A stretch of 38,662 nt of DNA, from the IMG/VR virus record IMGVR_UViG_2541047816_000001; one strand, given 5' to 3'. Within the stretch, counting starts at the first letter, position 1, and each line of letters begins with the position of its first letter. The position numbers were made by a program, and so were the translations under genes. Shown here in pieces: positions 1 to 35,587 of the stretch. Under the pieces are notes generated by a model. That model saw nothing but the letters and a program-made list of their open reading frames with translations. It had not been told where the DNA came from and did no database searches. Source of the DNA: a virus. Its lineage: Duplodnaviria; Heunggongvirae; Uroviricota; Caudoviricetes.

Positions 1-1053
1 TTACGGGGTAATGCCAACCGCTGCCGCCACTTTGTCGCCACTTGGCAGCGTTGCCAGAGGATTGAAACGGAGCGCCGTTTCTAGATGATCCGGTGCCAGA
101 TGTGCGTAACGCATAGTCATTTTTATATCGTGGTGTCCGAGAATTTTTTGTAAGGCCAGAATGTTTCCACCCGACATCATGAAGTGCGCCGCAAACGTAT
201 GGCGCAGAACGTGTGTGAGTTGACCGCGAGGGAGCACGATAGACGTTTTTTCCATCACGGATAAAAATTGAAAATAGCAGTCTGTGAAGAAATTGAACCC
301 ATCAAGCGCCATGATCTCTTCATAAAGCTCTTTACTGATAGGGATGCTTCTGTTTTTCTTCCCCTTCGTTCTTACAAAGGTAATTCGGTATTTAGTCACC
401 TGTGATCGGGTAAGATTTATTGCTTCTCGCCAGCGTGCGCCTGTGCTTAAGCATATCTTGACTACCAGTGCCAGAATTGGGTCCTGACGTTTGCAATCAG
501 CCAGCAGTTCAACAATCTGCTCATGGGTAAGCCATGCCATCTCTTTTTCTGCGATGGTGAATTTTCGCATGTTCTCCAGTGGGTTTGGATACGACCATTC
601 GCCCAGGCGGGATAGTTCGCTAAAAACACTACTTAGATAGCTTTGCTCCAGGTTAATGGTGACCGGGCTGGCTCCTTTCTTCCATTTCTCGCTGAAGTAG
701 ATCTCACCTGTCAGGCGTTTATCTCGATAGTGGGCAAACATTTTAGAGGTGAGATTGGTTGCAAGAGGATTGCCTAGAGCGTCAACCATCAGCAGCAATT
801 TGTCATAGACATGCTGTCCAGCAGTCAGAGATTTACCATGTAATTTGAACCATAGCTCAACCACGTCTTTCAGGGTTCGACGATCCACTGATTCGCCCAG
901 CCAGGGCTTTGATTCGGTTTCTTCCATCGTGTGACGCTCAAAAGCCAGAGCTTCGCCTTTGGTGGCGAATTGTTTACGCACACGACGCCCACTTCGTCCG
1001 GCGGGGTAACATTCGCAAAGCCATTTCCCTGTGGTGAGTTTTCGTACTGCCAT
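1..1053 (-). CDS. int: Tyrosine site-specific integrase (P2 Int-like)
   Basis: 350-aa ORF; C-terminal catalytic region HVLRHTFAAHFMMSGG...LGHHDIKMTMRYAHL with conserved R, H-x-x-R and Tyr; position at prophage edge next to the repressor region. Confidence 0.9.
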   Translation of the reverse strand: MAVRKLTTGKWLCECYPAGRSGRRVRKQFATKGEALAFERHTMEETESKPWLGESVDRRTLKDVVELWFKLHGKSLTAGQHVYDKLLLMVDALGNPLATNLTSKMFAHYRDKRLTGEIYFSEKWKKGASPVTINLEQSYLSSVFSELSRLGEWSYPNPLENMRKFTIAEKEMAWLTHEQIVELLADCKRQDPILALVVKICLSTGARWREAINLTRSQVTKYRITFVRTKGKKNRSIPISKELYEEIMALDGFNFFTDCYFQFLSVMEKTSIVLPRGQLTHVLRHTFAAHFMMSGGNILALQKILGHHDIKMTMRYAHLAPDHLETALRFNPLATLPSGDKVAAAVGITP

Positions 1054-1082
1054 AAAAAATGCCCTCCAGTGGAGAGCATTTA

Positions 1083-1102
1083 TACTGTTTTTTTATACAG
1101 TG
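1083..1102. promoter_or_regulatory. LexA-box-like motif TACTGTTTTTTTATACAGTG (CTGT-N8-ACAG) in the int upstream region
   Basis: Seen directly: matches SOS box consensus TACTGT-(AT-rich N8)-ACAGT; lies 30-50 nt upstream of the int start codon on the minus strand. Confidence 0.4.
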
Positions 1103-1143
1103 TCAATGTATGATGATTGGATAACTATACATATGTTATGTGT

Positions 1144-1824
1144 TTAATGCATTTTAGTTACATCTATGTTTTTATTGATTGTCTCTTTGTTACTGGAAAG
1201 TCTTTGTTCTTTTCTTTTAATGTATAACTCCCAACGAATATTATTCATTATGATAGCGTAGATATTAAAAATAAATGTCTTTACTACTAACACTAAGTAA
1301 ATAAGGCTAGTCCCTATAACACAGTATCCAAATTTAATAATTAATTCTTTTATCGATTTTGAATATGGAAATAAATCAATTATATTGCCAATTATTCCAT
1401 CTTTTTGACAAAAGAGAATTATTATTAGATAAATGAAAGTAAACGTAATAAATGAGATGAAAACTTTCATAAATGCCATAAAGTTATATTTTAACGTGGG
1501 CATCTGTGTTTTTTTATGTTGTATTGACATCATCTGAAGAAACATCTCGGGTTTGGATAGTGTTGCAAATATTGTGAAACCAGCAATGAGAAAACCTAAG
1601 GTTGTCACTGCAAAGTTAAAACCAATCAAAGCCCAGTTTCTAATGTCAGATACTAAATGAGACATATCCTTCTCAATAAAAAAAGAGTTTGTTAATAAAA
1701 AAATAGATGCTGTGAGCAAAATGCAAATATGGAATGTACTAATAGTAATCCGTTTGCAGAGCAAGTAAACATCCCAAAGGTTTTTCTCTTTGGTTATTTC
1801 TTTAGCATCTATTTTATTTATCAT
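1144..1824 (-). CDS. Hypothetical integral membrane protein, about 4 predicted TM helices, part of AT-rich moron cassette
   Basis: 226-aa ORF; four long hydrophobic stretches; very low GC (about 30%) versus prophage backbone; start overlaps upstream gene stop by 4 nt. Confidence 0.6.
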   Translation of the reverse strand: MINKIDAKEITKEKNLWDVYLLCKRITISTFHICILLTASIFLLTNSFFIEKDMSHLVSDIRNWALIGFNFAVTTLGFLIAGFTIFATLSKPEMFLQMMSIQHKKTQMPTLKYNFMAFMKVFISFITFTFIYLIIILFCQKDGIIGNIIDLFPYSKSIKELIIKFGYCVIGTSLIYLVLVVKTFIFNIYAIIMNNIRWELYIKRKEQRLSSNKETINKNIDVTKMH

Positions 1825-2849
1825 CGACCAAACCTTTCATATATATTGCTAATAATTCTAATCGTCTTTTGTGAAAGAGAACGGGGTAGAGATATCTTAC
1901 CTTCTTCTACAAGATTTTCATACCGCTCATAACTTTCATTTGCAGCTACTACCGTATCCTTTGATAATTCATTCATCTCACTTAACAAAACAAAGTCATC
2001 ATTGCTACCTTTGATTATATCACCATTGTCATCATATCCTTTAATATTTATTCCTGAATTAGCCAATCTGGTTGCTGATGTGAGTTGTTCTAAAACAGCA
2101 CCATGATTCAAGCCTGAATCGGTGTTTGAAAAGCGAATAGATGTAGAAATACTTCCCATTTCGTCTCCGGCACTTTCAAGTGACTCCCAAAATTCGTCGT
2201 TATCAATTTCTTCTTGATTTGTAGGGAGAAGTTTTACTGAGACATTTTGGATTTTATTAAAATTATCAATAAATTGCTCTAGGCTTTGTTTGTCAGTTAA
2301 CGGCGTTATTCTTAGCTTCGGGCGTTTGATTTCGTTCCGTAAGCTTTTTTTAGTGACTCGAGGTAAGTCAGGGTTTTCTTTGCGTTCTTCTTGTGCGGTT
2401 TCGTATAAATGAGATATGTATTTTTCATATTCTATGTTTAAGAAACACTGACTTGTTGACTGAAAGTTTTGAATTGTGGGAGCACCACTAACTTCCTTGC
2501 AAAGAATTAATCTGTGAGTGTTTAATATTAGAAGAAAGAAAGAGCTCGGGGCTGTTTCAAGCTCTTGATGATCTTCAACCAAATCAGCACCATCAAATAC
2601 TTGTTCTCTGGTTAATAATGTATTCTTAATAATCCGACCTTTAATTCCGAGTACTGGGGGTGTTGCTTCTTCGTCAAGTATGACGCATTCAGTATCAATG
2701 AAAAAGAACTCTGATTTGTCAGATATTCTGCGGATGTTTGCCATCTCCAAAAAAGAGGGGAAAACAATTTCATCATAATAGTCTAGCAAAACATCATCAC
2801 CAAAACGGAGAGTATAATTTCCAAATTCGAGTTTTTTTATAAAATCCAT
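1821..2849 (-). CDS. Hypothetical soluble protein, 342 aa, first gene of AT-rich cassette downstream of the repressor
   Basis: Long ORF with acidic stretches and no motif I recognise; 15 nt downstream of the repressor stop, co-oriented, translationally coupled to the membrane protein gene. Confidence 0.6.
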   Translation of the reverse strand: MDFIKKLEFGNYTLRFGDDVLLDYYDEIVFPSFLEMANIRRISDKSEFFFIDTECVILDEEATPPVLGIKGRIIKNTLLTREQVFDGADLVEDHQELETAPSSFFLLILNTHRLILCKEVSGAPTIQNFQSTSQCFLNIEYEKYISHLYETAQEERKENPDLPRVTKKSLRNEIKRPKLRITPLTDKQSLEQFIDNFNKIQNVSVKLLPTNQEEIDNDEFWESLESAGDEMGSISTSIRFSNTDSGLNHGAVLEQLTSATRLANSGINIKGYDDNGDIIKGSNDDFVLLSEMNELSKDTVVAANESYERYENLVEEGKISLPRSLSQKTIRIISNIYERFGR

Positions 2850-2864
2850 TACTATGCCTCAAGA

Positions 2865-3743
2865 TTAAATAGTACGGTACTGTGAGAAAATTTTGGCAAC
2901 TAATTTTATATCTTCTTTTTCACAATCAAATGTTAAATCATCGTCTGTTACTCGAAGATTGCCTCCAGGTAATAGAAAAATTTGTTTTAACTTGAAATTA
3001 TTTTGGTATTGAACAATCCATCTTCCGTCTTCAACATTAGCTTTATTCATGTGTGCAATATTTATGCAATGTTCGTCTTCAATTGCGAGTAAATCATTAA
3101 AATGAGGAAGCAGGGACTTATCTATCAATAAATGACCAGCATCGAAAATTTGATTGTCAATAAGTTTTACTTTAGGAATTTCTAAAGCTTCACTTTCTTC
3201 GCTTCCAAGTTTTTGCCCGCGCCCAGTTGCTAACCATAAAAGAGAAGTTCTTGTTTCCAACGAGCATCTTATGATCCAGTCAGCTGGGAATGTGTCTCGC
3301 AAGTATCTATTCGCCATTGTGCTTTTAGACACATTCAAATGGTCGGCAAGTTCTTGTCTTGTTTTAAAGCCATACGCTTCCATTAGCCTGTTTATCGCAT
3401 TACGTCCACCTGAATCCAGATTTGGATGGTTCACAATTGGGTTCTCGTTGGTGGTGGCTTTGGGAACATATTGAACCAATGATGCTGGTTCCTCTAATTT
3501 AGCGGGAACTTCGGTATTCTTAGGAAATGGCACGCCTTTTCCGAATGAGAGCCACTCTATAGATGCTCCTGTTTCAATTGCACACTGAATTACCCAGTCA
3601 GCAGGAAATGCGTCACGCATCCAGCGCGTTCCCATAGTACTTGCAGATACATTGAACTGTTCACATAGGGCTTGCCGCGTCTTGAATCCATACGCTTCAA
3701 GCATGCGCGTTATGACTGCCTGTCCTCCGTTTTTGAAATTCAT
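2865..3743 (-). CDS. Immunity repressor, phage 186 CI-like, with tandemly duplicated N-terminal HTH domain
   Basis: Two homologous segments (..RMLEAYGFKTRQALCEQFNVSASTMGTRWMRDAFPADWVIQCAIETGASIEWL.. and ..RLMEAYGFKTRQELADHLNVSKSTMANRYLRDTFPADWIIRCSLETRTSLLWL..) resembling the 186 CI N-terminal domain as I recall it, plus a C-terminal domain; position between int and the Apl/Cox-like gene, transcribed divergently from it. Confidence 0.7.
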   Translation of the reverse strand: MNFKNGGQAVITRMLEAYGFKTRQALCEQFNVSASTMGTRWMRDAFPADWVIQCAIETGASIEWLSFGKGVPFPKNTEVPAKLEEPASLVQYVPKATTNENPIVNHPNLDSGGRNAINRLMEAYGFKTRQELADHLNVSKSTMANRYLRDTFPADWIIRCSLETRTSLLWLATGRGQKLGSEESEALEIPKVKLIDNQIFDAGHLLIDKSLLPHFNDLLAIEDEHCINIAHMNKANVEDGRWIVQYQNNFKLKQIFLLPGGNLRVTDDDLTFDCEKEDIKLVAKIFSQYRTI

Positions 3744-3868
3744 CTAGTACGCCTTTGAGTAATATTGAGTTGACACTTCTCAAATGAAGAATTAATGTGT
3801 GCAAAAGTGAACTTGACGGTGTTAATCACCAGTTACCACGCATCATGTTAATCGAGGAATCTTGCATC
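3744..3868. promoter_or_regulatory. Lysis-lysogeny switch intergenic region (divergent repressor and early promoters/operators)
   Basis: 125-nt gap between divergently transcribed repressor and Apl/Cox-like genes; inferred from 186/P2 architecture; individual promoter elements not mapped. Confidence 0.4.
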
Positions 3869-4090
3869 ATGACTCCACATATTTCAATCACCTTAGCTGT
3901 TCCATCTGTTTCTATTGAGAAATACAGCGAACTGACTGGCTTATCTATCGACACCATCAATGACATGCTGGCTGATGGACGTCTTATTCGCCATCGTCTC
4001 CGTAAGGATAAAAAGCGAGAAAAGGTGATGATCAATATCGCAGCAATGACTGTTGATGCACTCGCTGAATGCAATTTGAGCATTAACTAG
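3869..4090 (+). CDS. Apl/Cox-like small DNA-binding regulator/excisionase
   Basis: 73-aa ORF from ATG 3869 with GAGGA RBS 10 nt upstream; first early gene divergent from the repressor; basic C-terminus; assignment by position. Confidence 0.5.
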   Translation: MTPHISITLAVPSVSIEKYSELTGLSIDTINDMLADGRLIRHRLRKDKKREKVMINIAAMTVDALAECNLSIN

Positions 4091-4104
4091 TTCCATTTTG
4101 GGTT

Positions 4105-4632
4105 ATGTCAGAGATGTCGAATATGTTTGATTACCAAGTTTCCAAACATCCACATTTTGATGAAGCCTGTCGTGCATTCGCATTGCGCCACAACCTGGTG
4201 CAACTGGCAGAACGTGCTGGCATGAATGTGCAGATTCTGCGGAACAAGCTGAACCCAGCTCAACCTCATTTATTAACCGCACCAGAAATCTGGCTGCTTA
4301 CCGATCTGACTGAAGATTCAACGCTGGTAGATGGTTTTCTGGCACAGATTCATTGTCTGCCATGTGTACCGATTAATGAGGTGGCAAAAGAGAAACTGCC
4401 ACATTACGTCATGAGTGCAACCGCAGAGATCGGGCGTGTTGCTGCAGGTGCGGTATCTGGCGATGTAAAAACCAGTGCCGGTCGTCGTGATGCCATCAGC
4501 AGCATTAATTCTGTAACACGACTGATGGCGCTGGCGGCTGTTTCATTGCAGGCCCGTTTACAGGCTAATCCTGCGATGGCGAGTGCAGTTGATACCGTGA
4601 CTGGCCTCGGTGCTTCATTCGGTTTGCTGTGA
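4105..4632 (+). CDS. CII-like regulatory protein (186 CII/CP76 family)
   Basis: 175-aa ORF; N-terminal [23 protein letters not shown]... resembles 186 CII as I recall it; position after apl/cox. Confidence 0.55.
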
Positions 4633-4806
4633 GGTGCTTATGCTGACGAAAGAACCATCATTTGCATCGCTGCTGGTAAAACAAAGCCCGGCAATGCACT
4701 ACGGTCACGGCTGGATCATGGGTGAGGATGGTAAACGCTGGCATCCGTGCCGTTCACAAGATGAATTGCTGTCTGAATTGACCACGGGGAAACGGAGAAA
4801 GTCAAA

Positions 4807-5031
4807 ATGTATGCAGCGGAAAGTGAAGTGGTTTATCAGTTTCGTTACAGAGGGGAGAGTTATTCAGTACCTGAAGATGATTTGCTCTGTTGTTATCCGT
4901 CGTTGTCGGGCGATGGCAGTTACTTTTTCACGCTAAAGGATGGGACGTTTTTACGGGGAGAGCAGGTTAAAGAGACGATACGAAAAAATGTATCTCCTCT
5001 TGAACGTTACCGTAAGAACAAAGAACGATAG
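4807..5031 (+). CDS. Hypothetical early protein
   Basis: 74-aa ORF with GGAGAAA RBS before ATG 4807; overlaps a competing 4640-4936 ORF in another frame. Confidence 0.45.
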   Translation: MYAAESEVVYQFRYRGESYSVPEDDLLCCYPSLSGDGSYFFTLKDGTFLRGEQVKETIRKNVSPLERYRKNKER

Positions 5032-5053
5032 TTGCGTTTTGGGGATATGAATT

Positions 5054-5395
5054 ATGGCAATTAATGGCGCTGCGGCGACTGTTCCATTAAGCCCCGGTGA
5101 ACGCCTGAATGGACTTAATCACATTGCGGAGTTAAGGGCGAAAGTTTTTGGCCTGAATATTGAGTCAGAGCTTGAGCGGTTTATTAAAGATATGCGTGAT
5201 CCACGGGATATCAATAGCGAACAAAATAAACGGGCACTGGCTGCCATATTCTTTATGGCAAAAATTCCAGCTGAACGTCATAGCATCAGCATTAATGAGC
5301 TGACCACTGACGAAAAGCGGGAGTTGATTAAAGCAATGAATCATTTTCGTGCAGTGGTGAGCTTATTTCCCAGACGGCTAACCATGCCGAATTAA
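5054..5395 (+). CDS. Hypothetical early protein
   Basis: 113-aa ORF, ATG preceded by GGGGA; within early operon. Confidence 0.5.
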   Translation: MAINGAAATVPLSPGERLNGLNHIAELRAKVFGLNIESELERFIKDMRDPRDINSEQNKRALAAIFFMAKIPAERHSISINELTTDEKRELIKAMNHFRAVVSLFPRRLTMPN

Positions 5396-5923: not shown

Positions 5924-6222
5924 CAGGGGCTGTGCGTATCCATCAATTAAAAATTGCACCTAAGTATTTCAACGCTGTGGTTGCAGGTCAAAAGACGGCT
6001 GAACTTCGTAAAGACGATCGTGGCTATAAAGTTGGTGATGTTCTTTCTCTTTGCGAATGGAAGCATGGCGTATTTACGGGTAGGGAATGGGCCGCGGTTA
6101 TCTCTCATGTGCTTCCGGTTAATGACGTCATGGCAGTTTCAGAACAATGGGTGATGCTATCAATTCGCTCATTAACCCCATTAGAAGCTTTAGGATATGT
6201 TATTGCAGGAGGTGCTGTATGA
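5920..6222 (+). CDS. Small PUA/ASCH-like domain protein
   Basis: 100-aa ORF from ATG 5920 (ATGA overlap with previous stop, GGAGGTG RBS); sequence pattern ..[28 protein letters not shown].. resembles ASCH/DUF-type domains common in P2-like early regions (family assignment tentative). Confidence 0.45.
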
Positions 6223-7085
6223 GCACCATCCTGAAATGGGCGGGAAATAAAACCGCAATTATGTCCGAACTGAAAAAACACCTTCCTGCTGGCCCGCGAC
6301 TGGTTGAACCTTTCGCGGGTTCCTGTGCTGTGATGATGGAGACGGATTATCCAAGCTATCTGGTTGCGGATATTAATCCTGATTTAATCAACCTCTATAA
6401 AAAGGTTGCCGCTGATTGTGAATCGTTTATATCTCGCGCCAGAGTTTTATTTAAGGAAGCAAACAGGGAGGTGGCTTATTACAACATAAGGCAGGAGTTT
6501 AATTACTCAAATGAAATTACTGATTTCATGAAAGCGGTATATTTCCTGTATCTCAATCGTCACGGTTACCGTGGTTTATGTCGCTATAACAAGAGCGGGC
6601 ATTTCAACATTCCCTACGGTAATTATAAAAATCCGTATTTCCCAGAAAAAGAAATTCGCGCATTTGCAGAAAAAGCCCAGCGGGCAACGTTTATCTGCGC
6701 CAGCTTTGATGAAACGCTGGCGATGTTGAAGGCGGGGGATGTGGTGTATTGCGATCCGCCGTATGACGGCACGTTTTCCGGTTATCACACTGACGGCTTC
6801 ACTGAAGATGACCAGTATCACCTGGCATCCGTTCTTGAACATCGGTCATCAGAAGGACATCCGGTCATTGTTTCTAACAGTGACACATCCCTGATCCGTT
6901 CGCTGTATCGCAATTTTACTCACCACTACATCAAGGCAAAACGCAGCATCGGCGTAGCAGCTGGTGAGAGTAAATCTGCAACAGAAATCATCGCTGTTTC
7001 TGGGCGCGCTGCTGGGTGGGATTTGAGCCTTCGCGTGGCGTGGATAGTTCTGCCGTGTACGGAGTGCGTGCATGAGCCATGCTGA
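6219..7085 (+). CDS. DNA N6-adenine methyltransferase, Dam family
   Basis: N-terminal LKWAGNK, FAGSCAV SAM-binding region and catalytic DPPY motif (CDPPYDGTF); ATG 6219 overlaps previous stop. Confidence 0.8.
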
Positions 7086-9486
7086 TATGAACAACTGCAG
7101 CGGCTTTAACGAGGCCGCCGCAGCATTCTCATGGAACAGCCCGAAAAAGGCTATTAACCCTTATCTGGACCCGGCGGAAGTTGCGCCGGTTTCTGCGCTT
7201 TCAAACCTGATCACTCTGTACGCTGCCGATAACGAGCAGGAACAACTGCGCCGCGAGGCACTGAGTGATCAGGTCTGGGAGCGTTATTTCTTTAATGAAT
7301 CCCGTGATCCTGTCCAACGCGAAATGGAGCAGGATAAGCTCATTAGCCGGGCAAAGCTGGCGCATGAGCAGCAGCGTTTTAATCCAGATATGGTCATTCT
7401 GGCGGACGTCAATGCCCAGCCTTCCCATATCAGCAAGCCGCTGTTGCAACGTATTGAATACTTCAGCAGCCTAGGCAGGCCAAAGGCTTATTCCCGCTAT
7501 TTGCGTGAGACGATTAAGCCATGTCTGGAACGACTGGAGCATGTACGCGACAGTCAGCTATCCACTTCTTTTCGCTTTATGGCAAGCCATGAAGGGCTGG
7601 ACGGCCTGCTGATCCTGCCTGAAATGAGTCAGGATCAGGTGAAACGCTTGTCTACCCTTGTCGCTGCGCATATGAGCATGTGCCTTGATGCAGCTTGTGG
7701 CGATTTGTATGTCACCGATGACGTTAAGCCAGAAGAAATCCGCAAGACATGGGAAAAGGTGGCAGCGGAAACCCTGCGTCTGGATGTCATCCCGCCTGCG
7801 TTTGATCAACTCCGCCGGAAAAGAAACCGCCGTAAACCCGTGCCCTATGAACTCATTCCGGGTTCGCTGGCGCGTATGTTGTGCGCCGACTGGTGGTACC
7901 GGAAATTATGGAAGATGCGTTGCGAATGGCGGGAAGAGCAGTTGCGTGCTGTTTGCCTGGTCAGCAAAAAAGCATCTCCCTATGTCAGCTATGAAGCCGT
8001 GATGCATAAACGTGAGCAGCGCCGTAAGTCGCTGGAGTTTTTTCGTTCTCATGAACTGGTGAACGAAGACGGCGACACGCTGGACATGGAGGATGTGGTA
8101 AACGCCAGCAGCAGCAACCCTGCGCATCGCCGCAATGAGATGATGGCCTGTGTTAAAGGCCTGGAGCTTATCGCGGAAATGCGCGGTGACTGCGCCGTTT
8201 TCTACACCATCACCTGTCCGTCACGTTTCCATTCCACGCTAAATAACGGCAGGCCCAACCCAACCTGGACAAATGCGACGGTAAGACAAAGTAGTGATTA
8301 TCTGGTCGGCATGTTTGCTGCATTTCGTAAGGCGATGCACAAAGCCGGATTGCGCTGGTATGGCGTGCGGGTGGCTGAGCCGCATCATGACGGTACAGTT
8401 CACTGGCACCTGTTGTGTTTTATGCGCAAAAAAGACCGCCGCGCCATCACTGCATTACTGCGTAAGTTTGCCATCCGTGAAGACCGCGAGGAGCTGGGCA
8501 ATAACACTGGGCCGCGCTTTAAGTCTGAGTTGATTAACCCGCGCAAAGGTACGCCAACAAGCTACATCGCGAAATACATCAGTAAGAACATGGACGGGCG
8601 TGGTCTGGCTGGCGAGATCAGCAAGGAAACGGGGAAATCCCTGCGTGATAATGCTGAATACGTTAATGCTTGGGCGTCTCTGCATCGTGTTCAGCAATTC
8701 CGCTTCTTTGGCATTCCGGGGCGTCAGGCTTACCGTGAACTGCGATTGCTGGCTGGTCAGGCGGCAAGGCAACAGGGGGACAAAAAAGCAGGTGCGCCGG
8801 TACTGGATAACCCGCGCCTTGATGCAATCCTGGCTGCTGCTGATGCTGGTTGTTTTGCCACCTACATTATGAAGCAGGGCGGCGTACTGGTTCCCCGCAA
8901 ATATCACCTTATCAGAACAGCTTATGAAATTAACGAAGAGCCGACCGCCTATGGCGATCACGGTATTCGTATTTATGGCATCTGGTCACCCATTGCAGAG
9001 GGCAAGATTTGTACTCATGCAGTGAAGTGGAAAATGGTTCGTAAGGCCGTTGACGTTCAGGAGGCGGCAGCCGACCAGGGCGCTTGCGCCCCTTGGACTC
9101 GTGGCAATAACTGTCCCCTTGCTGAAAATTTGAACCAACAGGAGAAAGATAAATCAACAGATGGGGATACCAGAACTGACATTACCTGTATGGATGACAA
9201 GGAGTTGCACGATTACCTGCATAGTATGAGCAAAAAAGAGCGCCAGGAACTGGCAGCAAGATTACGCCTGGTGAAACCGAAACGGCGTAAAGACTACAAA
9301 CAGCGAATTACAGAGTATCAGCGTCAGCAGCTCGTCTATGAACTGAAGTCAAGAGGATTTGATGGCAGCGAGAAAGAGGTCGATTTACTCCTTCGCGGTG
9401 GCAGTATTCCGTCAGGAGCAGGCCTGCGTATCTTCTATCGGAACCAGCGTTTGCAGGAAGATGATAAGTGGCGGAACCTGTATTAA
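7072..9486 (+). CDS. A: Rolling-circle replication initiation endonuclease (P2 gpA-like)
   Basis: 804-aa ORF; HUH-type motif (GTVHWHLL) followed by paired-tyrosine motif (YIAKYISK); position after early genes. Confidence 0.85.
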
Positions 9487-9577: not shown

Positions 9578-9597
9578 TACTGTAAATATAAACAGTG
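9578..9597. promoter_or_regulatory. LexA-box-like motif TACTGTAAATATAAACAGTG
   Basis: Seen directly: CTGT-N8-ACAG with TACTGT/ACAGT flanks and AT-rich spacer, in AT-rich intergenic region about 40 nt upstream of a small ORF with strong RBS. Confidence 0.5.
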
Positions 9598-9638: not shown

Positions 9639-9809
9639 ATGCAGGACTATTTTTTGGAGTCTTTGAAGCTCCAGCGCATTGATTTTTTTCTTAAGCTTGT
9701 AGCGGCTAGTGAGTGTAGTGATGAAGAGAAGGGGCTGGCTCTGCAGTGGGTTTCTGAGTTGACTGATGAGCTGATGGCGAGAATTCGCGCTCATGAATAC
9801 AACCACTAG
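9639..9809 (+). CDS. Small hypothetical protein (56 aa), possible SOS-controlled antirepressor-type gene
   Basis: ATG preceded by TAGGAGGAAAG RBS; below the 60-aa threshold of the ORF track; function inferred only from position downstream of the LexA-like box. Confidence 0.35.
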   Translation: MQDYFLESLKLQRIDFFLKLVAASECSDEEKGLALQWVSELTDELMARIRAHEYNH

Positions 9810-9973: not shown

Positions 9974-10528
9974 TTGCTTCTTATGAATCATGTAATGTTA
10001 GATATAGAAACATTGGATGTTGAAAAAACAGCTTATATCCTTTCAGTTGGTGCGGCTTTTTTCGTGCCGGAGACTGGCGAGATTGGTCCGGGTTTCTATC
10101 AAGTTATTTCGCTTGATCATGAACAAGCAGGCAGAACCATTGCCCCCTCTACTGTAAAGTGGTGGATGAATCAAAGTACTGAAGCTAAAAACGAAAATTT
10201 TGATGGCACTAAGGACCTTTTAGAGGTTCTGAATGAATTTGTGGCATTTATTCTTCATAATCGTACTGGCCGAGTAAAAGTGTGGGGAAACGGGAAAGAG
10301 TTTGACTGCACGATCATGCATCATGCCCTGTTACAGGCGGGTCTGGATTGCCCATGGTCATTCAGAGATACTCTTGACGTTAGAACCATCTTAGCACTTG
10401 GTGAAAGCAAAGGAATTTTTTCTCATGCTGATAAAAATTTCACTGGCATTAGGCACACAGCATTCGATGATGTTTTATTTCAGATCGCACAGGTTTCTCA
10501 CATCTATATGAATTTAAATAAAAAATAA
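9974..10528 (+). CDS. DEDDh-family (DnaQ-like) 3'-5' exonuclease domain protein
   Basis: Motifs in order: DIETLD (Exo I), VWGNGKEFD (Exo II region), HTAFDD (Exo III His/Asp). True start probably ATG 9983 or 9995 rather than TTG 9974. Confidence 0.6.
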   Translation: MLLMNHVMLDIETLDVEKTAYILSVGAAFFVPETGEIGPGFYQVISLDHEQAGRTIAPSTVKWWMNQSTEAKNENFDGTKDLLEVLNEFVAFILHNRTGRVKVWGNGKEFDCTIMHHALLQAGLDCPWSFRDTLDVRTILALGESKGIFSHADKNFTGIRHTAFDDVLFQIAQVSHIYMNLNKK

Positions 10529-10543
10529 ATATAGGACTTAGCT

Positions 10544-11455
10544 ATGGATTGCTTAGATGTAACCTATTGGACTGAGCTAGATGTTTTCGCACAGTATCCT
10601 GTTGGTGCTCGCTCTAAGGCATTGGTTATTTCCCCTGATGTTGCCCCCCATGGTATCAAAGCATCGTGGCCGTATCTTTTTAAGAGAAGTATTAAAAAAT
10701 ACCCAGATCAATTTTGGTGTGAGATCGTTGCCTACAGGATTGGATTGCAGCTTGGTTTTAATGTCCCCAAAGCAGTTCCTTCGTTAAAGACTAATGATTT
10801 GGGGCATACGTTTTGCGGGGCCCTCATTGAGTGGTTTCATCATAAAGATTATGAGAAATTTGCTCCCGCTGGTGATTACTTTGTTCGAAGAGATCCAAAT
10901 TTTGATCGTGAGAAAGGAGCTAAGCATTCCATTGAAGGGCTGAGGATTATCGCGAAAGCTCTTAAAGTTGACTATGTTGAGTGGTTGGAGAATATGGCTC
11001 TCTTTGACGCAGTAATAGGTAATACAGATAGACATCAAGAAAACTGGGGGTTTATCTTCTCCCCTTTAACCAGCGAGTGTCAGCTTGCACCATTTTTCGA
11101 TAATGGTACGAGCTTATGCTACGAACGCTTTCCGGAACATGTTGCTGATTGGACCGATCATAGACTCAGGGAGCATGTTAGCCGGGGAAAGCATCATTTG
11201 CGTAAAACTCTGGGCAAAGATGAGTATCAGAGATTAGGTCATTTAGAGTTAATCAAAGAACTTTGTGATAAAAAAGAAGAATTAAAACAGCGGGTAGCTG
11301 AAAGACTGGCTCGTTTGAACCATGACTTTTGGGACTCAACTTTTGCGGAGTTGACGGAAATAAACTGCCCTGTTCCGCTGACTAGAGAACGTGCTGCATG
11401 GATTGTTCGTGTAACAAACATGCGTATTGAACTGATTAAAGGTGTTACTTCATGA
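10544..11455 (+). CDS. HipA-family Ser/Thr kinase core lacking the HipA N-subdomain (HipT-like)
   Basis: Three HipA kinase motifs in correct order and spacing: G21-ARSK (cf. HipA GAQEK), IGNTDRHQEN at 158-167 (catalytic loop, cf. HipA GATDGHAKN), FFDNGTS at 184-190 (Mg-binding, cf. HipA FYDI); 303 aa. Confidence 0.6.
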   Translation: MDCLDVTYWTELDVFAQYPVGARSKALVISPDVAPHGIKASWPYLFKRSIKKYPDQFWCEIVAYRIGLQLGFNVPKAVPSLKTNDLGHTFCGALIEWFHHKDYEKFAPAGDYFVRRDPNFDREKGAKHSIEGLRIIAKALKVDYVEWLENMALFDAVIGNTDRHQENWGFIFSPLTSECQLAPFFDNGTSLCYERFPEHVADWTDHRLREHVSRGKHHLRKTLGKDEYQRLGHLELIKELCDKKEELKQRVAERLARLNHDFWDSTFAELTEINCPVPLTRERAAWIVRVTNMRIELIKGVTS

Positions 11456-12156
11456 CTATCTTAATAGAAAAAATTCCCATGCCAAGTAGGCTCTTACTGA
11501 CATGGCAACCGACCGACGGCGGCTCTCGCTATGTCGTTGGTGAACTTCTTCAAGATGAGTCTGAAGGCTACGAGTTTAATTATCTTACGGATAGCAAAGA
11601 TTTTGCTAAAGCTGGGGATAAAGGCTTTCACGGTTTTCCTGCTTTTGACATAAAAGTTACGACTCATCGCAAAGACGTTATGCAAACCTTTTCAAGAAGG
11701 TTACCCTCCAGGAAAAGAGAAGATTTTGCCGATTACTTGCTGACGTTTCGTCTTCCTGCTGATTTTAGAGAGAATGACTTCGTTTTGCTCGCTTGTACTG
11801 GCGGAAAAGTGGCTAGTGATGGTTTTTATTTTGTCCCAGACTTGTCTTCTATTCGGCCACCTTTTGATTATGTCATGGAGGTCGCCGGAACGAGACACAT
11901 GATTAAGGAAGGGCGTCTAGCTCTTGACGAGATATCAATTGGTGATGAAGTCATATTGCGCAATGAAGATACCAATACTGTTGATCCGCTGGCCATATTA
12001 GTAACGAAAAACGACAATCATCTAGGGTATGTCAACAAGGCATTGTGCGCCGCATTACGAGATCTTAGTAAAAACCATGATATCAGTGGAGTGGTCGTAC
12101 GTAAAAATGGCTCTTCGGATAGGCCTTTGATTTATGCAAAAGTATCTGTTAGATGA
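11452..12156 (+). CDS. HipS-like N-domain fused to C-terminal HIRAN domain
   Basis: N-terminus LLTW...VGEL...F.Y pattern parallels the HipA N-subdomain (LVTW..VGEL..FKY); C-terminus GDEVILRNEDTNTVDPLAILVTKNDNHLGYVNKALCAALRDL fits the HIRAN signature; start overlaps kinase stop by 4 nt (ATGA). Confidence 0.5.
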   Translation: MTILIEKIPMPSRLLLTWQPTDGGSRYVVGELLQDESEGYEFNYLTDSKDFAKAGDKGFHGFPAFDIKVTTHRKDVMQTFSRRLPSRKREDFADYLLTFRLPADFRENDFVLLACTGGKVASDGFYFVPDLSSIRPPFDYVMEVAGTRHMIKEGRLALDEISIGDEVILRNEDTNTVDPLAILVTKNDNHLGYVNKALCAALRDLSKNHDISGVVVRKNGSSDRPLIYAKVSVR

Positions 12157-35497: not shown

Positions 35498-35587
35498 TTC
35501 TTCGCAATGGAGAACTTTTAAGTTTGCAAAATGGAATAATGCGGTATCATTATTGTGAATTTAGCAAAAATGGGGAGAACTCGAAAA

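What the first reader, a model, noticed from the sequence alone, without database searches (positions are those of the whole stretch)
2865..3743. Immunity repressor with a tandem duplication of the 186-CI-type DNA-binding domain
Seen: residues about 12-72 and about 115-178 are clear paralogues (EAYGFKTRQ.L...NVS.STM..R..RD.FPADW.I.C..ET...). I recall 186 CI as about 192 aa with a single N-terminal domain. A covalently doubled HTH could change operator spacing requirements or cooperativity, and would be expected to alter immunity specificity.
Basis: partly seen in the sequence, partly recalled or inferred. Interest (0 to 1): 0.4.

Follow-up and report, generated by a model that had tools for sequence, protein, structure and literature searches.

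The report
Two-headed 186-type prophage immunity repressor
The gene encodes a prophage immunity repressor with two DNA-reading heads instead of one; it arose by fusing the head of one repressor lineage onto a complete repressor of another, and this widespread but unstudied design may let one protein read two sets of control sites.

Summary
ORF 2865-3743 (-) encodes a 292-aa 186-type CI repressor with two PF07022 helix-turn-helix domains (residues 3-70 and 109-176; 55% identical, E 2e-31). A disordered linker of about 38 aa joins them, and a 186-CI oligomerisation domain (PF16452) follows.

It is not an artefact. The same ORF occurs in 13 complete E. coli genomes. Both heads are under strong purifying selection (dN/dS 0.00-0.10, against 0.33-0.59 for the linker).

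It is not a recent internal duplication. Head 1 is 75-90% identical to the heads of 204-208-aa single-head CIs. Head 2 plus the C-terminal domain, and the two downstream cargo genes, match 195-200-aa single-head CI prophages (85% DNA identity). A 409-bp cassette (3446-3854: head 1, linker and the pR operators) appears to have been grafted onto codon ~5 of a complete repressor gene.

The architecture is common: about 38% of the closest homologue clusters and roughly 4% of complete E. coli genomes. I found no paper that describes it.

An operator of head 2's ancestral type survives inside the linker-coding DNA (3429-3444). It lies about 300 nt from the cI start, where phage 186 has its FL site.

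My working model is inferred, not shown: head 1 represses pR, and head 2 reads the flanking sites and possibly the operators of a second immunity group.

The parts
2865..3743 (-). cI: 292-aa immunity repressor with the layout head 1 - linker - head 2 - oligomerisation domain
   Evidence: ORF; PF07022 x2 plus PF16452; annotated 'phage repressor protein CI' WP_001009712.1 in identical prophages
3534..3737 (-). Head 1 (D1, residues 3-70), an HTH with recognition-helix region SASTMGTRWMRD; 'C-type'
   Evidence: Pfam/HMM domain; 75-90% identical to the heads of 204-208-aa single-domain CIs; dN/dS 0.02-0.07
3420..3533 (-). Inter-head linker (residues 71-108), predicted disordered and fast-evolving
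   Evidence: pLDDT <50 for residues 75-109; dN/dS 0.33-0.59; hypervariable in alignment A1
3216..3419 (-). Head 2 (D2, residues 109-176), an HTH with recognition-helix region SKSTMANRYLRD; 'B-type'. It occupies the position of the single head of 186 CI.
   Evidence: 2FJR aligns to residues 115-290; 69-79% identical to the heads of 195-201-aa single CIs; dN/dS 0.00-0.10
2874..3182 (-). C-terminal domain (residues 188-290) with the 186 CI dimerisation/oligomerisation fold
   Evidence: PF16452 E 2.2e-16; model versus 2FKD TM 0.90, rmsd 1.4 A
3446..3854 (.). Grafted cassette: head 1, the linker and the pR promoter/operator region. It has no counterpart in the single-domain relative L006.
   Evidence: BLAST boundaries: window 1-3445 is 85% identical to L006 starting at codon ~5 of its cI; window 3855 onward matches L002 (92%) and L006 (73%); window 3535-4198 is 70% identical to the 206-aa-CI prophage L004
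3429..3444 (.). Operator-like inverted repeat GTTCAC-AATT-GGGTTC inside the linker-coding DNA (codons N-P-I-V-N). It descends from the promoter-proximal operator 'Oa' of single-domain B-type cI genes and lies 299-314 nt from the cI start codon.
   Evidence: 2 mismatches to GTTCCCAATTGGGTAC. It is the best hit in the 38.6-kb window (16.5 bits) to a matrix trained only on single-domain operators. The same position holds the best locus-wide hit in 27 (+3) of 55 distinct tandem genes. Codon-position entropy there is reversed. 186 FL lies 269-285 nt into its cI.
3746..3763 (.). O1': AGTACGC-CTTT-GAGTAAT, a candidate CI operator just upstream of the pR -35
   Evidence: Positional and sequence homologue of O1 of the 206-aa-CI phages; third-best window hit of the C-type matrix, 13.4 bits
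3775..3792 (.). O2': ACTTCTC-AAAT-GAAGAAT, a candidate CI operator that fills the pR spacer
   Evidence: Homologue of O2 (ACTTYNC-AAAT-GNRAAGT) of the 206-aa-CI phages; best window hit of the C-type matrix, 14.9 bits; conserved in all window-type loci
3770..3798 (+). pR, the early lytic promoter: TTGACA (3770-3775), 17 nt, TAATGT (3793-3798)
   Evidence: Read from the sequence. The same layout (TTGACx-17-TAnnnT) occurs in related phages. The generic scan did not call it because the -10 matches only 3 of 6 positions.
3869..4090 (+). apl-like Cox-type excisionase/repressor, first gene of the pR operon
   Evidence: phrog_575 E 1.6e-28
4090..4105 (.). GTTCCATTTTGGGTTA, a weak B-type-like element between the apl stop and the cII start, at the position of 186 FR
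   Evidence: 8.3 bits with the B-type matrix; 186 FR is annotated between the apl stop and the cII start; the element varies with CI type across loci. Tentative.
4123..4632 (+). cII (PF06892)
   Evidence: Pfam E 3.6e-42; conserved start MFDY
1144..2849 (-). Two cargo genes (342 aa and 226 aa) of unknown function, co-inherited with head 2 and the C-terminal domain
   Evidence: The same gene pair follows the 197-aa single-domain cI in L006, L007 and L008; no Pfam, PHROG or PADLOC match
1..1053 (-). Integrase, end of the lysogenic operon
   Evidence: ORF; annotated as phage integrase next to rcdA/ybjJ

Best explanation
The gene encodes the working immunity repressor of a 186-like (Peduoviridae) E. 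coli prophage. The protein is a natural chimera. It is a complete 'B-type' CI (head 2 plus the 186-type oligomerisation domain) that carries an extra 'C-type' DNA-binding head at its N-terminus, held on a disordered tether of about 38 residues.

The head came in as a cassette together with its own lytic promoter and operators (3446-3854). That cassette replaced the B-type pR operators. One ancestral B-type operator was left stranded inside the linker-coding DNA (3429-3444).

Proposed mechanism:
- The C-terminal domains build dimers and a higher-order 186-like assembly.
- Head 1 binds the two imperfect inverted repeats O1' and O2' and shuts off pR.
- Head 2 binds the embedded site about 320-350 bp to the left, and perhaps the apl-cII element about 310 bp to the right. 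These are the positions of FL and FR in phage 186. This would give bridging or looping and extra cooperativity.
- Head 2 plus the C-terminal domain is essentially a whole B-type repressor, so the lysogen may also be immune to B-type phages.

Shown: the architecture, integrity, mosaic origin, purifying selection on both heads, and the presence, position and conservation of the sites. Inferred: which head reads which site, the oligomeric state, looping, and dual immunity.
For: Architecture and fold.

Integrity: the locus is identical in 13 complete genomes, and the head1-linker-head2 DNA occurs in 31 of 5426 genomes.

Selection: dN/dS is 0.02-0.07 for head 1, 0.00-0.10 for head 2 and 0.33-0.59 for the linker.

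Chimeric origin: the domain tree and identity table. DNA mosaic boundaries lie at 3445 and 3855. The same cargo genes follow the single-domain cI in L006 and L008. Head 1 and head 2 share 33% identity at third codon positions.

Head 1 and pR: O1' and O2' sit at the same places relative to the -35 and -10 as O1 and O2 of the 206-aa single-head phages, and resemble them. No B-type matrix hit of 8 bits or more lies in 3744-3868.

Head 2 and the embedded site: a matrix trained only on operators of single-head B-type phages finds its best hit of the whole window at 3429-3444. It also finds the homologous junction in every tandem gene whose head 2 carries the ANRY helix. Tandems with the ATRY helix carry a different junction site that resembles their own pR operator. 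The encoded peptide varies (NPIVN, NPIGN, SPIGN, FPIET, YPNEI) while the DNA pattern xxC-CCA-AxT-GxG-AxC is kept. Codon-position entropy at the site is 0.62/1.21/0.93, against 0.45/0.20/1.36 in head 2.

Geometry: 186 has three CI sites at pR next to the cI start, FL 269-285 nt inside cI, and FR between apl and cII. The 186 wheel of seven dimers and its flanking sites are described in bioRxiv 10.1101/2021.10.29.466366.
Against: - No binding data exist.
- Window-wide, the matrix scores are not significant on their own. The 16.5-bit hit is reached in 21 of 200 shuffles. The 13-15-bit O1'/O2' hits are at the median of the shuffle maxima. The argument therefore rests on position and conservation.
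- Half-sites of the different head types are similar (TCNC-A...), so assigning sites to heads is not clean.
- Phage 186 CI reads two different site types with a single head, so one head could do everything here too.
- Retention of the embedded site could partly reflect descent.
- The covariation between helix type and junction site involves only two subclades, so few independent events.
- The FR-like element scores only 8.3 bits and lies close to the cII ribosome-binding site.
- The AlphaFold model gives no information on inter-domain or oligomer geometry (pTM 0.40).
Confidence: 0.5

Rival explanations
1. Head 2, which sits where the single head of 186 CI sits, reads all operators, just as 186 CI reads two site classes with one head. 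Head 1 is an accessory. It might add non-specific or weak DNA avidity, or serve as the target or a decoy for an SOS-induced antirepressor.
For: 2FJR aligns with head 2 plus the C-terminal domain. In the large tandem clade, head 1's helix is invariant while the middle pR operator and the junction site change together with head 2's helix. The left half of O2' (TTCTC-A) also resembles B-type half-sites. 186 has pR-type and FL/FR-type sites read by one head. A LexA box followed by a small ORF sits where 186 has tum.
Against: Head 1 was co-transferred with the pR operator region. O1' and O2' are positional homologues of operators used by phages whose only head is C-type. The recognition-helix region of head 1 is itself under strong purifying selection (dN/dS 0.02-0.07). 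No B-type matrix hit lies at pR.
Confidence: 0.22
2. The protein acts as a single-chain pseudo-dimer. Head 1 and head 2 of one chain bind the two unlike halves of each asymmetric operator. The fusion would then create a new composite specificity and new spacing rules.
For: O1' and O2' are imperfect palindromes (about 5 of 7-8 positions). The left half resembles B-type sites (TCTC-A) and the right half resembles C-type sites (GAAGAAT versus GAGAAGT). Operators of the large tandem clade look like three non-palindromic units YCCG-WWW-TGTGAW.
Against: Single-head relatives also have imperfect palindromes at the homologous positions. The linker is 35-40 residues, disordered and hypervariable in length, and no inter-head packing is predicted. 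The C-terminal domain should already pair two chains.
Confidence: 0.15
3. This is a recent in-gene tandem duplication of the HTH domain.
For: Two paralogous domains lie in one ORF. The large 307-330-aa tandem clade might have started this way, because both of its heads are preceded by related N-terminal segments.
Against: For this allele, the heads share 54% amino-acid and 58.5% nucleotide identity, and 33% at third codon positions. Head 1 nests within the heads of 204-208-aa CIs and head 2 within those of 195-201-aa CIs. The DNA is a mosaic.
Confidence: 0.03
4. An assembly or frameshift artefact, or a decaying pseudogene, has joined two genes.
For: Rare loci do show two cI genes in a row (L122), or a heads-only ORF overlapping a full cI (L124). 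Some truncated versions exist (L010 at 229 aa, L123 at 237 aa).
Against: The ORF is identical in 13 complete genomes and in IMG/VR contigs. The architecture is conserved in about 45 clusters at 38-62% identity. Both heads are under purifying selection.
Confidence: 0.01

Closest known systems
Coliphage 186 CI repressor (PDB 2FJR, 2FKD)
   Same: It has the same HTH family (PF07022) and the same C-terminal oligomerisation fold (PF16452; model TM 0.90 to 2FKD). It holds the same gene position: first gene of the leftward operon before int, facing pR-apl-cII. Operators lie directly next to the cI start, and there is a CI-type site about 300 nt inside cI.
   Different: 186 CI is 192 aa with one head. 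This protein has a second, diverged head on a disordered tether. The site inside the gene lies in head-head linker DNA and is of the pR-like (TCNC-AATT-GGG) kind, not the TTCAC-N5-GTGAA kind of 186 FL/FR. Identity to 186 CI is low (about 28-40% over residues 115-290).
Single-head CIs of 195-200 aa (e.g. P0004, P0007, P0009; prophages L006, L008)
   Same: They are 75-81% identical to residues ~100-292. They are followed by the same two cargo genes. An operator is embedded in the codons just upstream of the head.
   Different: They have no head 1. Their pR -35 overlaps the start codon, and three B-type operators flank it.
Single-head CIs of 204-208 aa (e.g. P0054, P0056, P0077; prophage L004 at the same rcdA/ybjJ attachment site)
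   Same: Their head is 75-90% identical to head 1. The pR/O1/O2 layout is homologous.
   Different: They have an unrelated linker and C-terminal domain allele, and no second head.
Other natural tandem-head CIs (Klebsiella phage 4LV2017 CI, 313 aa; E. coli WP_053902324.1, 297 aa; clusters P0006-P0047)
   Same: They have the same three-domain architecture and the same conserved operator-like site at the linker/head-2 junction.
   Different: In the large clade, head 1 is a separate lineage with an 18-residue N-terminal extension (SQSTMANRYARD helix). Those phages keep a B-type-like pR region. They are 38-62% identical to this protein.
Engineered lambda-186 hybrid repressor (PDB 7JVT) and engineered single-chain 434 or Arc repressors (the latter from my own knowledge)
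   Same: They show that heads can be exchanged on the 186 C-terminal domain, and that covalently linked HTH units can work (one search lists 7JVT).
   Different: They are laboratory constructs. Here nature added a head rather than swapping one.
Two-HTH XRE-type lysogeny regulator of C. difficile phage phiCDKH01 (PMC11172241)
   Same: It is a phage lysogeny regulator reported to contain two HTH domains.
   Different: It belongs to a different HTH family (cd00093 XRE), lacks the 186-type C-terminal domain, and is from an unrelated phage.

Membership tests
186-type CI immunity repressor | N-terminal PF07022 (Phage_CI_repr) HTH domain | tested here: met
   Two copies; whole-protein E 4.1e-59
186-type CI immunity repressor | C-terminal PF16452 (Phage_CI_C) domain with the 186 CI fold | tested here: met
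   E 2.2e-16; 2FJR E 1.3e-23; model versus 2FKD TM 0.90, rmsd 1.4 A
186-type CI immunity repressor | [quoted passage not shown] | tested here: met
   The layout is int (1-1053), cargo genes, cI (2865-3743), apl (3869-4090, phrog_575) and cII (PF06892). The 186 layout is.
186-type CI immunity repressor | One DNA-binding head per subunit (192-aa architecture) | tested here: not met
   There are two heads per subunit. This is the point of difference.
186-type CI immunity repressor | Inverted-repeat operators over pR, next to the cI start | tested here: inconclusive
   O1' and O2' are positional homologues of operators in single-head relatives, but their scores are not significant window-wide, and a third site is unclear
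186-type CI immunity repressor | Flanking sites (FL inside cI, FR between apl and cII) about 300 bp from pR | tested here: inconclusive
   A conserved operator-like site lies 299-314 nt into cI, and a weak element lies at 4090-4105. Their sequence type differs from 186 FL/FR.
186-type CI immunity repressor | Assembly into a wheel of seven dimers | not testable with these tools
   Only a monomer model was possible. The wheel is described for 186 CI.
186-type CI immunity repressor | No RecA-type autocleavage; induction through an SOS-controlled antirepressor (Tum) | tested here: inconclusive
   No Peptidase_S24 match appears in Pfam. A LexA-box-like site at 9578-9596 is followed by a 56-aa ORF of unknown function, where 186 has p95-tum.
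Lambda/LexA-type (S24) repressors | S24 peptidase catalytic C-terminal domain | tested here: not met
   There is no PF00717 hit. Only distant fold similarity to LexA and lambda C-terminal domains was found (E 1e-6 to 1e-3).
P2 C-type repressors | A small (~99 aa) repressor that binds direct repeats | tested here: not met
   The size and domain families are different.

The most novel reading that the evidence does not exclude
The protein is a natural bispecific repressor with a division of labour. Head 1 silences the phage's own lytic promoter. Head 2 has kept the specificity of a second immunity group. It uses that specificity to bind an operator hidden in the repressor's own linker-coding DNA, and the apl-cII element, which gives FL/FR-like looping. 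It also represses superinfecting phages of that second group. A single fusion event would therefore create a new immunity type and widen superinfection exclusion at once. Recurrent fusions and losses of heads would be a general route by which 186-like phages generate new immunities.
Probability: 0.3. Interest if true: 0.7.

Novelty: new variant of a known kind. Interest (0 to 1): 0.45.

Why it matters
The 186 switch is one of the best-quantified alternatives to lambda, and its logic depends on a multi-dimer wheel that contacts pR and distant flanking sites. A natural version with two different heads per subunit would show three things:
- How immunity specificity evolves by domain grafting rather than by point mutation.
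- How operators can be carried inside coding DNA. Here the N-terminal codons of these cI genes double as the pR -35 and as operators.
- Whether one repressor can police two operator sets. That bears on prophage competition, on superinfection exclusion in E. coli, Klebsiella and Salmonella, and on the design of orthogonal or bispecific repressors.

The architecture occurs in a few per cent of E. coli genomes and in deposited Klebsiella phages, so material for testing is easy to obtain.

Tried and rejected
1. Window-wide statistics for the candidate operators. The B-type matrix hit (16.5 bits) is reached in 21 of 200 shuffles. The C-type hits (13-15 bits) equal the median shuffle maximum. I therefore do not claim significance from score alone.

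2. A strong C-type-like site just upstream of the late activator gene ogr/B (35499-35516, 14.8 bits) looked like a 186 pB-type CI site. The same sequence, one base different, is present in Klebsiella phage 4LV2017, whose CI is only ~42% identical. It does not track the repressor, so I dropped it as evidence.

3. The generic promoter scan did not call pR because its -10 (TAATGT) matches only 3 of 6 positions. I assigned pR by comparison with relatives.

4. Generic repeat finding in 3400-4300 gave only short, chance-level repeats.

5. Exact or near-exact copies of O2' elsewhere in the window: none.

6. AlphaFold2 gave no usable inter-domain geometry (pTM 0.40), so the single-chain pseudo-dimer idea could not be tested structurally.

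7. The one-genome-per-species collection gave only 2 tandem genes among 80 loci, so it was not useful for operator comparison. IMG/VR loci were used instead.

8. Four literature searches and a reading of the P2-like regulatory-gene survey PMC3448106 found no description of two-head 186-type CIs. Absence from this library is not proof of absence.

9. No FL/FR-like B-type matrix hits were found at +/-300 bp in single-head B-type phages. The 'FL-like' status of the embedded site is therefore by position only.
Full report
**1. What is at 2865-3743.** The minus-strand ORF 2865-3743 is intact and encodes 292 aa. Pfam reports PF07022 (bacteriophage CI repressor HTH) in two stretches (whole-protein E 4.1e-59) and PF16452 (CI repressor C-terminal domain) at residues 188-285 (E 2.2e-16). 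PHROGs files it under transcriptional repressor. BLASTP of the first 99 residues against the rest aligns residues 2-70 with 108-176 without gaps: 38/69 identical, E 2e-31. The solved 186 CI (2FJR) aligns only with residues 115-290 (E 1.3e-23), so the N-terminal head is the additional one. An AlphaFold2 model built on 44 tandem homologues gives two five-helix bundles and a beta-rich C-terminal domain. Residues 75-109 are at pLDDT <50 and pTM is 0.40, meaning three beads on a flexible string.

**2. Context.** The window is a P2/186-like prophage of E. coli. From the left it carries:
- int (1-1053);
- two unknown cargo genes (1144-2849);
- cI;
- an apl/cox-like gene (3869-4090; phrog_575, E 1.6e-28);
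- cII (PF06892; true start 4123);
- the replication gene A (7072-9486), and at the far right tail gene D and an ogr/B-like gene.

The same locus is 99.8-99.96% identical in complete E. coli genomes, where it sits next to rcdA/ybjJ and the gene is annotated 'phage repressor protein CI'. This is the layout of phage 186, whose RefSeq record annotates three CI sites at pR directly next to the cI start, FL inside cI, and FR between apl and cII.

**3. Not an artefact and not rare.** The full 1.6-kb region occurs in 13 complete E. coli genomes. The head1-linker-head2 DNA occurs in 31 of 5426 genomes. Among the 120 best protein clusters, 46 carry two heads and 74 carry one. They come from E. coli, Klebsiella, Salmonella, Citrobacter, Enterobacter, Kosakonia and Edwardsiella, and from deposited phages such as Klebsiella phage 4LV2017 (313-aa CI). 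A probe from the largest tandem clade covers at least 80% of both heads in about 215 of 5426 complete E. coli genomes. That figure may include a few cases where both probe halves matched one head. In a library of 50%-identity representatives, about 33 of the best 150 matches to head 2 contain two or more such domains, and some contain 4-7. In a one-genome-per-species collection, only 2 of 80 loci were tandem. Four literature searches and a survey paper on P2-like regulatory genes did not mention the architecture.

**4. Both heads are kept by selection.** I compared the window gene with its two sister alleles (L093 and L001). dN/dS is 0.02-0.07 for head 1, 0.00-0.10 for head 2 and 0.33-0.59 for the linker, with dS of 0.17-0.53 in the heads. 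Across 44 tandem proteins, both heads are highly conserved while the linker is hypervariable in sequence and length.

**5. Origin: fusion, not internal duplication.**
- The two heads share 54% amino-acid and 58.5% nucleotide identity, and only 33% at third codon positions.
- Head 1 is 75-90% identical to the heads of 204-208-aa single-head CIs and nests among them in a neighbour-joining tree. Head 2 is 69-79% identical to the heads of 195-201-aa single-head CIs and to other second heads.
- At the DNA level, window 1-3445 is 85% identical to a Klebsiella aerogenes prophage (L006) whose cI is a 197-aa single-head gene. The match starts at codon ~5 of that gene and runs through the same two cargo genes and int.
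- Window 3855-5200 is 92% identical to phage 4LV2017.
- The 409 bp in between (3446-3854: linker, head 1 and the intergenic region) has no counterpart in L006. It is most similar (70%) to a 206-aa-CI E. coli prophage at the same attachment site.
- A sister allele (L001, 297 aa) shares residues 1-174 but has another C-terminal domain and other cargo (DUF4276 plus AAA ATPase).

So the gene is a complete 'B-type' cI onto which a 'C-type' head and its promoter/operator region were grafted. Heads, C-terminal domains and cargo are exchanged as modules. At least three or four unrelated first-head lineages exist. Loci with two cI genes in a row (L122), or a heads-only ORF overlapping a full cI (L124), look like intermediates.

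**6. Operators.** Comparing about 280 related loci gave a consistent grammar.
- Single-head phages have three roughly 16-18-bp inverted repeats about 29-30 bp apart across pR.
- In the 195-200-aa B-type phages, the pR -35 (TTGACA) overlaps the start codon (M-S-T). One operator (GATCTC-ATTT-GGGTAC) lies inside codons 5-9. The other two are TATCTC-TTTT-GCGATC and GTTCCC-AWTT-GGGTAC.
- In the 206-aa C-type phages, O1 (TTCCGC-CTCG-GGAAAGT) and O2 (ACTTYNC-AAAT-GNRAAGT) bracket and fill the pR spacer.
- In the window, pR is TTGACA (3770-3775), 17 nt, TAATGT (3793-3798). O1' (3746-3763, AGTACGC-CTTT-GAGTAAT) and O2' (3775-3792, ACTTCTC-AAAT-GAAGAAT) sit at the homologous places and are conserved in all window-type loci.

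A matrix built from the C-type single-head operators ranks O2' first and O1' third in the whole 38.6-kb window. However, the scores (14.9 and 13.4 bits) are no better than shuffle maxima. This is positional homology, not statistical proof.

**7. An operator inside the linker-coding DNA.** A matrix trained only on operators of single-head B-type phages gives its best hit in the whole window at 3429-3444 (GTTCAC-AATT-GGGTTC, 16.5 bits). That is exactly at the mosaic junction, in the codons N-P-I-V-N just before head 2. Window-wide, the score alone is unremarkable: 21 of 200 shuffles reach it. The same junction, however, holds the best locus-wide hit in 27 of 55 distinct tandem genes, and in 3 more at a slightly shifted offset. 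That is every tandem gene whose head 2 has the ANRY helix. Tandem genes with the ATRY helix carry GTTTTC-ATTA-TCGAAC there, which resembles their own middle pR operator (ATTCTT-TATG-TGAACC).

The encoded peptide changes freely (NPIVN, NPIGN, SPIGN, FPIET, YPNEI, FDNEN; Glu/Val/Gly = GAG/GTG/GGG), while the DNA pattern xxC-CCA-AxT-GxG-AxC is kept. In 37 distinct tandem genes taken at a fixed offset, entropy at codon positions 1/2/3 of the five site codons is 0.62/1.21/0.93. The values are 1.29/1.04/1.41 in the next six codons and 0.45/0.20/1.36 in head 2. That reversal is what a DNA-level constraint would give.

The site lies 299-314 nt from the cI start. 186 FL lies 269-285 nt into its cI. A weak B-type-like element (GTTCCATTTTGGGTTA, 4090-4105, 8.3 bits) lies between the apl stop and the cII start, where 186 has FR. 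Variants of this element differ between CI types: TTCC in B-type backgrounds, TTCG or TCCG in C-type and 187-190-aa backgrounds. It is close to the cII ribosome-binding site, so I treat it as tentative.

**8. How it most likely works.** By homology with 186 CI, the C-terminal domains pair and assemble. [quoted passage not shown] Here each subunit offers two different heads.

The best-supported reading is a division of labour. Head 1, which arrived together with pR/O1'/O2', represses pR. Head 2, which is under equally strong selection and sits in the canonical position, binds the retained B-type site inside cI and possibly the apl-cII element. This would give bridging and extra cooperativity. 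Because head 2 plus the C-terminal domain is a whole B-type repressor, the lysogen might also be immune to B-type phages. These steps are inferred.

Two live rivals remain. In the first, head 2 does all the specific binding, as 186 CI reads two site classes with one head, and head 1 is an accessory or an antirepressor target. In the second, the two heads of one chain read the unlike halves of asymmetric operators. The head types recognise similar cores (TCNC-A), so sequence alone cannot separate these readings.

**9. Comparison and novelty.** The protein meets the sequence, fold and gene-context criteria of a 186-type CI and fails only the criterion of one head per subunit. It is best called a new, uncharacterised but widespread variant of a known kind. 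The specific allele was already in databases as 'phage repressor protein CI'.

What I think is new:
- the demonstration that this allele is a graft of two immunity lineages;
- the finding that heads, C-terminal domains and cargo are shuffled as modules;
- the finding that a cognate operator of the second head persists, apparently under DNA-level constraint, inside the linker-coding DNA at an FL-like distance.

Interest is moderate (0.45). It would be clearly higher if bispecific binding or dual immunity were shown.

Noticed in passing
window 1144-2849 (-): Two cargo genes lie between cI and int: a 342-aa soluble protein and a 226-aa protein with several hydrophobic segments. Neither has a Pfam, PHROG or PADLOC match. 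They always travel with the head-2/C-terminal part of cI (L006, L007, L008). The sister allele L001 carries DUF4276 plus an AAA ATPase at the same spot. This looks like a candidate novel defence or exclusion module in the cI-int hotspot.
   Followed up: partly
window 9578-9596 and 9639-9809 (+): A LexA-box-like palindrome (TACTGTAAATATAAACAGT) lies just after replication gene A. A 56-aa ORF of unknown function (phrog_698) follows it. This is where phage 186 has its SOS-controlled tum antirepressor operon, so the ORF is a candidate inducer of this two-headed repressor.
   Followed up: partly
window 1083-1102: A second LexA-box-like palindrome (TACTGTTTTTTTATACAGT) lies between int and the 226-aa cargo gene.
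   Followed up: no
loci L136-L152 and L002, L009, L102 etc. (5' ends of cI): In many 186-type cI genes the first codons do double duty. M-S-T (ATGTCAAC) is the reverse complement of the pR -35 TTGACAT. Codons 5-9 (KYPNEI) or 7-10 (TFRH) encode an operator. This explains the otherwise odd conservation of these N-terminal extensions.
   Followed up: partly
window 4090-4105; all loci at the apl-cII junction: A palindrome-like element lies between the apl stop and the cII start, at the position of 186 FR and pE. Its sequence differs between CI types: GTTCCATTTTGRGA, GTTCGATATTGCG and ATTCGATTTTGAAAC.
   Followed up: partly
window 4105 vs 4123: The longest cII ORF starts at 4105. The conserved start (MFDY...) used in all relatives and in RefSeq is the ATG at 4123.
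   Followed up: yes
L122:1312-2855; L124:1995-3151: L122 has a 189-aa single-head cI followed 51 bp later by a 307-aa two-head cI. L124 has a 198-aa ORF made of two heads only, overlapping (ATGA) a complete 187-aa cI. These may be intermediates of head gain or loss, or phages with three heads in total.
   Followed up: partly
proteins P0181, P0210, P0247, P0256, P0260: Proteins of 340-1426 aa carry 4-7 PF07022-like HTH stretches. Their biology is unknown.
   Followed up: no
window 35499-35516: The operator-like sequence TCTTCGCAATGGAGAACT lies just after tail gene D and about 75 bp upstream of the ogr/B-like late activator gene. It is also present, with one base different (TTCAC instead of TTCGC), in Klebsiella phage 4LV2017, which has a different CI.
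   Followed up: partly
L003 (E. coli FDAARGOS_1283) 6041-6196 and 7620-8476; window about 4640-4800 and 6147-7085: In the identical prophage, RefSeq marks fil as a truncated pseudogene and the DNA adenine methylase as frameshifted. The prophage may be partly decayed in accessory genes.
   Followed up: no
window 9974-12156 (+): Three further cargo-like ORFs (184, 303 and 234 aa) lie after the LexA-controlled ORF, in the second variable region of P2-like phages. I did not analyse them.
   Followed up: no
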